Source: a virus (lineage: Duplodnaviria > Heunggongvirae > Uroviricota > Caudoviricetes). Taken from it: a stretch of DNA of 24,793 nt. A program made the position numbers and the translations under genes. The notes below the pieces were generated by a model, which was not told the origin of the DNA, did not search any database, and saw only the letters and a list, made by a program, of their open reading frames with translations. Positions 7,278 through 7,980 of the stretch are shown in pieces (position 1 is the first letter of the stretch; each line of letters begins with the position of its first letter). The DNA lies in IMG/VR virus record IMGVR_UViG_2740892230_000034; one strand, written 5' to 3'.

Positions 7278-7904
7278 TCAATGAATCCATTCCTCGCCGC
7301 GCAGTTTTGCCAGCATTGGCTGAGCGTTCTTTACGACAAAATTGTTGGTATCAAGATTCTTCATTTCACGAAGAAGTGATTTCTTGGTTTCTTCTGACAT
7401 GTAGCGAGTCTCATATGCAATATCGTAAATCCTTCCTGAAAGCTCAGAACCAATTTGCTTCATTCCTGGGTAGATGTGTTTGCACATTTGTTGACTCTTC
7501 TCCATCCACAATTGTAAGTAGCAGAGATTAACCAGTTCTTCGTCAGTAAACTGTTTTGCAATCGGTGAGCATTCTGCCTGCCGATCCAAAATATCCAGCA
7601 CCCAGCGGCGGAACTCTTTGGCTACCTGAGTGCGAGCAAACATCGCGATTAGGTGGGCACCGCGTAGTGAGAAAACACGCACTTTTTTACGATAATTTCC
7701 TGAGGTACTCACTTCGAGTACCTGAGTCATTCCGGCGCTAAACTCATCGCTATACTTGTTATAAATCATTGTTACTGCACGACTATTTGCGTATTTAAGT
7801 GCAGATGCAATATTAGATGATGTAAACCAAACACCATGCATATCACGGGTGGGCACCAATTCAACTCCGTGGAAGTTGTAATCTGATTTTGCTACAATAT
7901 TCAT
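7278..7904 (-). CDS. ant: Antirepressor (Ant-like), BRO-N-type N-terminal domain (209 aa from ATG 7904)
   Basis: Shine-Dalgarno AAGGAA 6 nt upstream of ATG (7902-7904). MNIVAKSDYNFHGVELVPTRDMHGVWFTSSNIASALKY fits the Bro-N/AntA pattern. Sits immediately downstream of arc, as in P22 immI. Confidence 0.7.
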   Translation of the reverse strand: MNIVAKSDYNFHGVELVPTRDMHGVWFTSSNIASALKYANSRAVTMIYNKYSDEFSAGMTQVLEVSTSGNYRKKVRVFSLRGAHLIAMFARTQVAKEFRRWVLDILDRQAECSPIAKQFTDEELVNLCYLQLWMEKSQQMCKHIYPGMKQIGSELSGRIYDIAYETRYMSEETKKSLLREMKNLDTNNFVVKNAQPMLAKLRGEEWIH

Positions 7905-7980
7905 GTTAGTTTCCTTGCATACGGTTACTGACATAGAGGCCCGGTTTGTGTTCACGCACTGCCGGGCTTCACTATTTTTA
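7890..7980 (+). ncRNA. sar: Candidate sar-like antisense RNA 1 (about 70 nt), antisense to the ant ribosome-binding site
   Basis: Extended -10 TGcTACAAT at 7890-7898 on the plus strand. An imperfect long hairpin (outer stem GCCCGG 7939-7944 / CCGGGC 7962-7967) is followed by TTCACTATTTTTA. The position in the arc-ant intercistronic region matches the P22 sar arrangement. Confidence 0.4.

What the first reader, a model, noticed from the sequence alone, without database searches (positions are those of the whole stretch)
7890..7980. Candidate sar-like antisense RNA across the arc-ant junction
On the strand opposite ant there is an extended -10 (TGcTACAAT) about 10 nt from the ant start codon, and about 70 nt downstream a hairpin with a trailing T-run in the arc-ant intergenic region. 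This geometry matches the P22 sar antisense RNA, which pairs with the ant ribosome-binding site.
Basis: partly seen in the sequence, partly recalled or inferred. Interest (0 to 1): 0.55.

Follow-up and report, generated by a model that had tools for sequence, protein, structure and literature searches.

The report
Divergent sar antisense RNA gene
This is a diverged copy of the well-known phage P22 "sar" antisense RNA gene, sitting between the arc and antirepressor genes of an E. coli prophage, where it most likely blocks translation of the antirepressor; it is real but an expected part of this kind of phage immunity region.

Summary
On the + strand an extended -10 (TGcTACAAT, 7890-7898) lies inside ant codons 2-5. 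The predicted start, G7905, is the base next to the ant AUG. The 75-nt RNA (7905-7979) folds into two hairpins and ends in a U-run overlapping the arc stop codon. This is the geometry annotated for P22 sar. The P22 Psar+sar sequence aligns best, in the whole window, to 7889-7971 (72% identity). A covariance model built from 15 sar-like sequences without window-type members scores 7905-7979 at 59.5 bits (E 2e-11), against 11.9 bits for the next hit. All 80 arc-anchored viral loci carry the same element. They show compensatory changes and 126 G·U against 8 A·C cells, so the fold is kept on the sar strand. Rfam RF00262 misses the window but detects intermediate relatives, and RefSeq annotates nothing there. 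Transcription and repression remain inferred. Verdict: a new, divergent member of a known kind, of modest interest. In passing, a second sar-like antisense module (about 7169-7261) faces the start of a second antirepressor-type gene.

The parts
7870..7875 (+). Possible weak -35 of Psar (TGGAAG, 17-bp spacer, 3 of 6 matches to TTGACA)
   Evidence: Read from the sequence. P22 Psar also has a poor -35 (GTGTTA). Here the hexamer overlaps conserved Phe-His codons of the Bro-N domain, so its conservation is ambiguous. Low confidence.
7890..7898 (+). Extended -10 of the Psar-like promoter: TG-c-TACAAT, inside ant codons 2-5
   Evidence: It aligns with P22 TGcTATACT, which lies in the annotated Psar 15097-15125. 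TAnnnT is kept in all 48 distinct promoter and RNA variants, although the encoded residues vary (Ile-Val, Ser-Ile, Ser-Leu, Ser-Val and others) and the ant ATG shifts relative to it.
7905..7979 (+). Predicted sar-like antisense RNA, about 71-75 nt; +1 = G7905 by homology with P22 sar +1 (15090)
   Evidence: Model R1 gives 59.5 bits, E 2e-11, full length. Folding gives -29.4 kcal/mol, z -5.35, and -33.3 kcal/mol with G7905 included. The 3' end is inferred, not mapped.
7905..7932 (+). Stem-loop I: GUUAGU/ACUGAC stem; the loop holds the anti-Shine-Dalgarno UUUCCUU (7910-7916)
   Evidence: P22 has the same 6-bp stem, GUUGGU/ACUGAC. Helix 1 is 91.7% paired over 43 distinct sequences.
7936..7970 (+). 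Terminator hairpin: 10 bp (G7936-C7970 to U7945.G7961), an internal loop, 4 bp, and loop UCAC
   Evidence: The outer helix has 9 pairs, 5 of them with compensatory changes, and 0 broken cells in a sequence-only alignment. It contains three G.U pairs, which would be A.C on the other strand.
7971..7979 (+). 3' tail ACUAUUUUU; the U5 run 7975-7979 ends inside the arc stop codon
   Evidence: The T-run is at least 90% conserved across the family. The P22 tail is CAACUUUACG, and its annotated sar end at 15021 also overlaps the arc stop codon at 15020-15022.
7278..7904 (-). ant (208 aa antirepressor with Bro-N and P22_AR_C domains), the target gene; SD AAGGAAA at 7916..7910
   Evidence: RefSeq WP_001028067.1 has the same boundaries in E. 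coli 55989.
7978..8151 (-). arc-like repressor gene (57 aa, Pfam Arc)
8193..8220 (-). Predicted Pant (TTGACA, 16 bp, TAAATT with an upstream TG), convergent with Psar about 280 bp away
   Evidence: 10 of 12 matches. It is a consensus match only.
8263..8583 (+). mnt-like repressor gene (106 aa, Pfam Arc), divergent from arc

Best explanation
Window 7890-7979 (+) encodes a diverged homologue of the phage P22 sar RNA together with its promoter.

Inferred steps. A sigma-70 promoter of the extended -10 type, embedded in ant codons 2-5, starts transcription at about G7905, convergent with Pant. The transcript ends after the 7936-7970 hairpin, in the U-run at about 7973-7979. This gives an RNA of about 70-75 nt.

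Shown. That RNA is perfectly complementary to the whole arc-ant intercistronic region, including the ant Shine-Dalgarno sequence.

Inferred from P22. Pairing with ant mRNA blocks ribosome binding and so limits antirepressor synthesis. It acts as a post-transcriptional back-up to repression of Pant by Arc and Mnt. This protects the establishment and maintenance of lysogeny.
For: Geometry matches the P22 annotation: sar 15021-15090, Psar 15097-15125, ant from 15091, arc ending at 15022 (sequences).

Sequence homology: 72% identity over 88 columns, and this is the best-scoring place in the window on either strand. Model R1, built without window-type sequences, gives 59.5 bits and E 2e-11, against 11.9 bits for the next hit.

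The two-hairpin fold and stability match P22: -29.4 against -29.5 kcal/mol, z -5.35 against -5.26.

Rfam-positive sar members (L080, L067, L071, L041; 44-59 bits) lie in the same alignable series of arc-ant junctions.

All 80 arc-anchored viral loci carry the element. R1 finds it in 75 (73 end exactly at the arc stop codon, L067 within a few bases, and L065 lies about 440 nt downstream). The other five carry the L051/L055-type sequence, which folds the same way.

Covariation: 90.4% of cells are paired against 82.4% in shuffles. Twelve pairs have changes on both sides (0 of 500 shuffles reach this). Slid controls give 26-53%.

Strand specificity: 126 G.U cells against 8 A.C cells. In the window, the + strand folds with z -5.35 and the - strand at -19.5 kcal/mol with z -1.9.

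The -10 positions T1, A2 and T6 stay invariant while the overlapping codons and the ATG position vary.

The context is a full immI module.

The mechanism of P22 sar, blocking the ant ribosome-binding site, is as stated in PMC7968456. sar was detected by small-RNA sequencing in P22 infection (PMC13397905).
Against: No transcript data for this prophage were available, so the promoter activity, the 5' end and the 3' end are all predictions.

Rfam RF00262 does not report the window even at E <= 10.

The -35 is poor and the -10 motif alone is not above chance.

The U-run starts 4 nt after the stem, so termination efficiency is uncertain.

Part of the helix-1 covariation comes from a model-fitted alignment. 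In the GUCGA subtype the 3' arm is displaced by 3 nt relative to the sequence alignment.
Confidence: 0.85

Rival explanations
1. The conserved hairpin acts in the arc-ant mRNA (- strand), for example as an attenuator, a stabiliser, a processing site or an RBS-sequestering structure. The -10-like motif would then be a by-product of ant codons, and no + strand RNA would be made.
For: Any hairpin is present on both strands. The - strand version still folds at -19.5 kcal/mol. The -10 motif alone is at chance frequency.
Against: There are 126 G.U cells against 8 A.C cells in the family, and 46 G.U cells with 0 broken cells in the sequence-only outer helix. This means pairing is maintained on the + strand. 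The - strand fold has z of only -1.9. No U-run follows the hairpin on the - strand. TAnnnT stays fixed, including at the synonymous third position of codon 4, while the residues vary. The homologous P22 element is an annotated and experimentally described RNA gene.
Confidence: 0.05
2. The + strand promoter and terminator are real, but they act mainly by transcriptional interference with convergent Pant transcription (polymerase collision or occlusion) rather than by RNA-RNA pairing at the ant RBS.
For: Psar and the predicted Pant converge about 280 bp apart, as they do in P22.
Against: The conserved anti-SD-bearing hairpin I, and the exact coverage of the intercistronic region up to the base before the AUG, would be unnecessary for pure interference. 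The P22 literature attributes repression to blocking of the ant RBS. The two mechanisms are not exclusive.
Confidence: 0.07
3. It is a decayed, non-functional remnant of sar in this prophage lineage.
For: It fails the Rfam threshold. There is no expression evidence.
Against: The promoter, both helices and the U-run are intact. The same sequence type is nearly identical in many independent prophages: 70 of 5426 complete E. coli genomes cover at least 80% of the region. Its variants keep pairing, for example G-C to A-U in L002.
Confidence: 0.03

Closest known systems
sar RNA of Salmonella phage P22 (immI region; Rfam RF00262)
   Same: It is antisense to the arc-ant intercistronic region. An extended -10 promoter lies inside the first ant codons (TGcTAtAcT in P22, TGcTAcAaT here). 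The +1 G is adjacent to the ant AUG. Stem I is 6 bp, with the anti-SD in its loop. A long G.U-containing terminator hairpin follows, and the 3' end overlaps the arc stop codon. The flanking mnt, Pant, arc and ant genes are the same.
   Different: Only about 72% identical, and below the reporting level of the Rfam model. The terminator has an internal loop and a longer, better U-run (75 nt against 68-70 nt). The ant gene it faces has a Bro-N N-terminal domain rather than the P22-type N-terminus. The host is an HK620/Sf6-like E. coli prophage.
SymR antisense RNA of E. coli (Rfam RF01809)
   Same: It works alike. SymR is a cis-antisense RNA of about 77 nt that starts next to the start codon of its target (symE) and covers the RBS, with two hairpins. 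There is a weak match of the SymR model to the window (21.2 bits, E 0.15).
   Different: The score is far below the gathering score of 61. The reciprocal test fails, because the sar-family model R1 gives the real symR only 4.7 bits. The target gene and context are different. This is an analogue, not a relative on present evidence.
IS10 RNA-OUT and phage P1 c4 RNA (recalled from general knowledge, not tested here)
   Same: Both are small RNAs that block translation initiation of a gene whose untimely expression is harmful. RNA-OUT is likewise made from a promoter inside the 5' end of its target gene. The c4 RNA likewise controls an antirepressor operon (icd-ant) in an 'immI' region.
   Different: No sequence relationship was found or tested. 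The c4 RNA is processed from the same-strand transcript and is not a cis-antisense RNA.

Membership tests
sar antisense RNA of P22-type immI regions (biological family) | Encoded antisense in the arc-ant intercistronic region, with the 5' end next to the ant start codon and the 3' end at the arc stop codon | tested here: met
   Window: predicted +1 at 7905, ant ATG at 7904, U-run ending at 7979, arc stop at 7980..7978. P22: 15090, 15091, 15021 and 15020-15022.
sar antisense RNA of P22-type immI regions (biological family) | Own promoter (Psar) inside the 5' end of ant, reading opposite to Pant | tested here: met
   Met at the sequence level only. The extended -10 TGcTACAAT aligns with the P22 Psar -10 and is conserved in all 48 variants. 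Promoter activity itself is not testable with these tools.
sar antisense RNA of P22-type immI regions (biological family) | Two stem-loops: a 5' hairpin carrying the anti-SD, and a 3' terminator hairpin | tested here: met
.
sar antisense RNA of P22-type immI regions (biological family) | Detectable sequence homology to P22 sar | tested here: met
   72% identity over 88 columns, the best place in the window, above all 200 shuffles. Model R1, which includes P22 and excludes window-type sequences, gives 59.5 bits and E 2e-11.
sar antisense RNA of P22-type immI regions (biological family) | Context of mnt, arc and an antirepressor gene | tested here: met
   Pfam Arc for arc and mnt; Bro-N plus P22_AR_C for ant. 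PHROGs calls ant an anti-repressor. RefSeq annotation agrees.
sar antisense RNA of P22-type immI regions (biological family) | A transcript of about 70 nt exists and represses ant translation | not testable with these tools
   No expression data were available. The P22 precedent is taken from the literature only.
Rfam RF00262 (sar) as currently modelled | Score at or above the gathering threshold of 43 bits | tested here: not met
   No hit at gathering or at E <= 10. The positive control P22 scores 97.8 bits. Only 4 of 20 representative arc-ant junctions pass. This is an operational limit of a narrow model. The element is therefore filed as a divergent homologue outside the current Rfam family boundary.
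SymR (Rfam RF01809) | Score at or above the gathering threshold of 61 bits, and antisense to symE | tested here: not met
   21.2 bits, E 0.15. R1 gives the real symR 4.7 bits. The target is ant, not symE.

The most novel reading that the evidence does not exclude
sar-type RNAs may be one instance of a portable 'RBS-guard' module. The module is a promoter hidden in the first codons of a gene, plus an antisense RNA of about 75 nt that covers the gene's RBS and ends at its own terminator.

In this window the immI operon would carry two such modules in tandem. sar faces ant. A second, unannotated module at about 7169-7261 faces a second antirepressor-type gene (phrog_1726). A relative with the sar-type terminator faces icd-like genes in P4-like islands.

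If so, the family is much wider than Rfam RF00262, and it travels with the 5' end of whatever gene it controls.
Probability: 0.4. Interest if true: 0.45.

Novelty: new member of a known kind. Interest (0 to 1): 0.3.

Why it matters
It fills an annotation gap. This RNA gene is absent from the RefSeq annotation of E. coli 55989-type prophages and is invisible to the Rfam sar model. Yet it probably sets how much antirepressor these prophages can make, and so how readily they, or co-resident prophages, escape repression. The comparative set collected here (43 distinct variants with covariation) would allow a broader sar model to be built. It also suggests that antisense guarding of antirepressor start sites is a general, modular feature of immI-type regions in Enterobacterales phages.

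Tried and rejected
1. Rfam search of the window, at gathering score and at E <= 10, found no sar hit and only a weak SymR match. Kinship with SymR was then rejected by the reciprocal test.

2. The simple promoter and terminator scanners missed Psar, because its -35 is poor, and missed the terminator, because the U-run is offset. The -10 motif alone is at chance frequency.

3. Sequence-only MAFFT alignments recover the outer terminator helix well but misalign stem I. In the GUCGA subtype the 3' arm is shifted by 3 nt. Strict positional covariation for stem I across subtypes cannot therefore be claimed, and a model-fitted alignment was used with that caveat.

Only 7 were confirmed by R1.

5. The primary P22 papers (Liao 1987, Wu 1987, Schaefer and McClure 1997) are not held in the library. 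Mechanistic details rest on secondary sources and general knowledge.

6. Model R1 does not detect the second antisense candidate at 7184-7261. It is analogous in design, but homology is not shown.

Full report
**What is in the sequence**

The window is part of a P22-like prophage related to HK620, Sf6 and N7. About 96% identity extends over roughly half of the window. The 131 bases around the finding are 100% identical to the E. coli 55989 chromosome.

Around the finding the - strand carries two genes.
- An arc-like gene lies at 7978-8151 (57 aa, Pfam Arc).
- An antirepressor gene lies at 7278-7904 (208 aa, Bro-N plus P22_AR_C).

The + strand carries an mnt-like gene at 8263-8583. A good Pant-like promoter lies at 8220..8193 on the - strand.

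On the + strand the following features can be read directly.
- The extended -10, TG-c-TACAAT, occupies 7890-7898, inside ant codons 2-5.
- Six bases further on is G7905, the base adjacent to the ant AUG.
- A 6-bp stem-loop spans 7905-7932. Its loop holds UUUCCUU, the complement of the ant Shine-Dalgarno sequence.
- A long hairpin spans 7936-7970.
- The tail is ACUAUUUUU (7971-7979). Its last two U lie in the arc stop codon.

**Is it more than chance?**

The -10 motif alone is not: there are 3 matches in the window against 3.4 expected. The generic scanners find neither the promoter nor the terminator. The composite is a different matter.
- The RNA folds at -29.4 kcal/mol with z = -5.35, and none of 200 shuffles folds as well.
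- The complementary strand folds at only -19.5 kcal/mol with z = -1.9.

**Comparison with P22**

The P22 record annotates arc at 14861-15022, sar at 15021-15090 (opposite strand), the sar promoter at 15097-15125, and ant from 15091. Side by side, the two loci share several features.
- The motif TTGCTAyAmTATTCATGTTrGTTT.
- The motif TTACTGACA.
- The base of the terminator stem, GCCC...GGGCTTCA.
- The same spacing from the -10 to the +1.
- A +1 adjacent to the ant AUG.
- A 3' end that overlaps the arc stop codon.

The 111-nt P22 Psar+sar segment was aligned against both strands of the whole window. Its best local alignment falls at 7889-7971 (+) with 72% identity over 88 columns. The score is 36, against 25.3 +/- 2.3 (maximum 33) for 200 dinucleotide shuffles. 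P22 sar folds into the same two hairpins with the same stability, -29.5 kcal/mol and z -5.26.

The P22 terminator tail is CAACUUUACG. It is offset from the stem just as here, and it has a poorer U-run.

**Rfam**

RF00262 (sar) scores P22 at 97.8 bits. It gives nothing for the window, even at E <= 10. RefSeq accordingly annotates no RNA at this place in E. coli 55989. Among 20 representative arc-ant junctions from viral contigs, only four pass the Rfam threshold (44-59 bits). The Rfam family is thus a narrow slice of a wider series.

**The wider series**

Eighty viral loci were collected with the Arc protein alone as bait, so they are unbiased with respect to sar. They gave 56 distinct junction sequences, and in 55 of them the element lies directly after arc. 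These share the same plan.
- A TAnnnT hexamer, mostly preceded by TG.
- About six or seven bases to the start of a 5' hairpin that holds the anti-SD.
- A 3' hairpin.
- A T-run that ends at the arc stop codon.

The hexamer's T1, A2 and T6 are invariant. Meanwhile the overlapping ant residues vary (Ile-Val, Ser-Ile, Ser-Leu, Ser-Val and others), and in some loci the ATG moves relative to the hexamer. This points to selection on the promoter rather than on the protein.

I built covariance model R1 from 15 of these sequences plus... more precisely, from 15 sequences including P22, but excluding the window and its close relatives.
- It scores window 7905-7979 at 59.5 bits (E 2e-11, full length). 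The next hit in the window scores 11.9 bits.
- It finds the element in 77 of 82 sources. Apart from the window and P22 these are 75 of the 80 loci. In 73 of them the hit ends exactly at the arc stop codon, and in L067 within a few bases. The remaining hit, L065, lies about 440 nt further downstream.
- The five loci it misses carry the L051/L055 sequence type, which folds the same way.

**Structure support**

A sequence-only alignment gives the outer terminator helix as 9 pairs. Five of them show compensatory changes, and none of the 387 cells is broken. On the model-fitted alignment of 43 distinct sequences the counts are as follows.
- 90.4% of cells are paired, against 82.4% in shuffles.
- 12 pairs have changes on both sides; 0 of 500 shuffles reach this.
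- Slid controls give 26-53% paired.

One caveat applies. The alignment is fitted to the structure. In the GUCGA subtype the 3' arm of stem I is displaced by 3 nt relative to the sequence alignment. Part of the stem-I signal is therefore re-formation of a hairpin rather than strict positional compensation.

The strand question is settled by wobble pairs. There are 126 G.U cells against 8 A.C cells. The fold is thus maintained on the + (sar) strand and not on the ant mRNA strand.

**Mosaicism**

The sar segment stays 95-99% identical to the window in loci whose ant N-terminal part is unrelated (27-60% matched). It stays 80-84% identical in loci with quite different ant genes. Phage JEP4 shares 95% identity over window 7866-7984, within the 601 bases compared (7700-8300). 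The promoter, RNA and RBS therefore behave as one unit.

**Mechanism**

Shown:
- perfect complementarity to the whole arc-ant spacer, including the SD;
- the conserved promoter-like element;
- the conserved, strand-specific two-hairpin fold ending in a U-run.

Inferred from P22 (PMC7968456; PMC2629481; PMC13397905):
- the RNA is made;
- it pairs with ant mRNA;
- it blocks ribosome binding, and so limits antirepressor synthesis.

From general knowledge, not verified here: Psar is thought to become effective once Arc has shut off the convergent Pant.

Rivals are disfavoured but not experimentally excluded. They are an mRNA-strand structure, pure transcriptional interference, and a dead remnant. 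The G.U asymmetry, the conserved anti-SD hairpin and the intactness across many prophages argue against them.

**Comparison and novelty**

This is a divergent homologue of a textbook antisense RNA. It sits in the place where such an RNA is expected, in a prophage lineage where neither Rfam nor RefSeq reports it. Predicted sar genes in other P22-like phages have been noted before, for example in epsilon34. I therefore rate it a new member of a known kind, with modest interest.

SymR resembles it in design and gives a weak model match. The reciprocal search fails, so kinship is not supported.

**Seen in passing**

A second module of the same design lies 650 bp away on the + strand.
- TGcTACATT lies at 7169-7177, inside the first codons of the 242-aa gene 6461-7189. 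That gene matches phrog_1726 'anti-repressor'.
- The predicted start is at about 7184. The RNA would cover that gene's AUG and SD.
- A canonical intrinsic terminator at 7225-7251, followed by a U-run that reaches 7261, ends it.
- The module is kept, with some compensatory terminator changes, in 32 of 36 distinct upstream sequences of that gene's relatives. The gene beyond the terminator varies among them.

An element with the sar-type terminator also faces an icd-like gene in a P4-like island. Both observations suggest a broader class of promoter-in-the-first-codons antisense guards. Neither was tested further.

Noticed in passing
window 7169-7261 (+ strand): A second sar-like cis-antisense module. 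The extended -10 TGcTACATT (7169-7177) lies in the first codons of the minus-strand 242-aa gene 6461-7189, which matches PHROG 1726 'anti-repressor'. The predicted RNA starts at about 7184 and covers that gene's AUG and SD. It ends at a canonical terminator (7225-7251, followed by UUUUCUUUUU). The module is conserved in 32 of 36 distinct relatives, with compensatory terminator variants, and it is independent of the upstream gene. The window's fold z-score is only -1.84. Neither Rfam nor model R1 hits it.
   Followed up: partly
L203 2451-2546 (E. coli MLI106K2, P4-like island); about 50 E. coli genomes match window 7934-7984 at 86%: An element with the sar-type terminator hairpin and an upstream TGgTATGAT lies antisense to the start of an Icd-like gene. 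R1 scores it at 37.8 bits (E 2.4e-7) and the Rfam SymR model at 34.8 bits, below that family's threshold.
   Followed up: partly
window 8179-8194: A perfect 16-bp palindrome, TTGGTTCTAGAACCAA, overlaps the -10 and start region of the predicted Pant. It is a likely Mnt-type or Arc-type operator.
   Followed up: no
window 5887-6225 (+) and 6240-6461 (-): A third Arc-family gene (RefSeq WP_000287065.1) lies divergent from the end of the ant operon. A 73-aa gene (phrog_4977, function unknown) overlaps the stop codon of the second antirepressor-type gene.
   Followed up: no
L213 and L278 (contigs labelled Chryseobacterium sp. 18061): Strong sar-family hits (72.8 and 41.3 bits) occur in an assembly labelled as a Bacteroidota species. 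All other confirmed hits are in Enterobacterales (Pantoea, Enterobacter, Rosenbergiella, Citrobacter, Rouxiella). This may be a mixed or mislabelled assembly.
   Followed up: no
L065 2113-2181: This is the one arc-anchored locus where the sar-like element is not directly after arc but about 440 nt further downstream. Extra sequence appears to lie between arc and the guarded gene.
   Followed up: no
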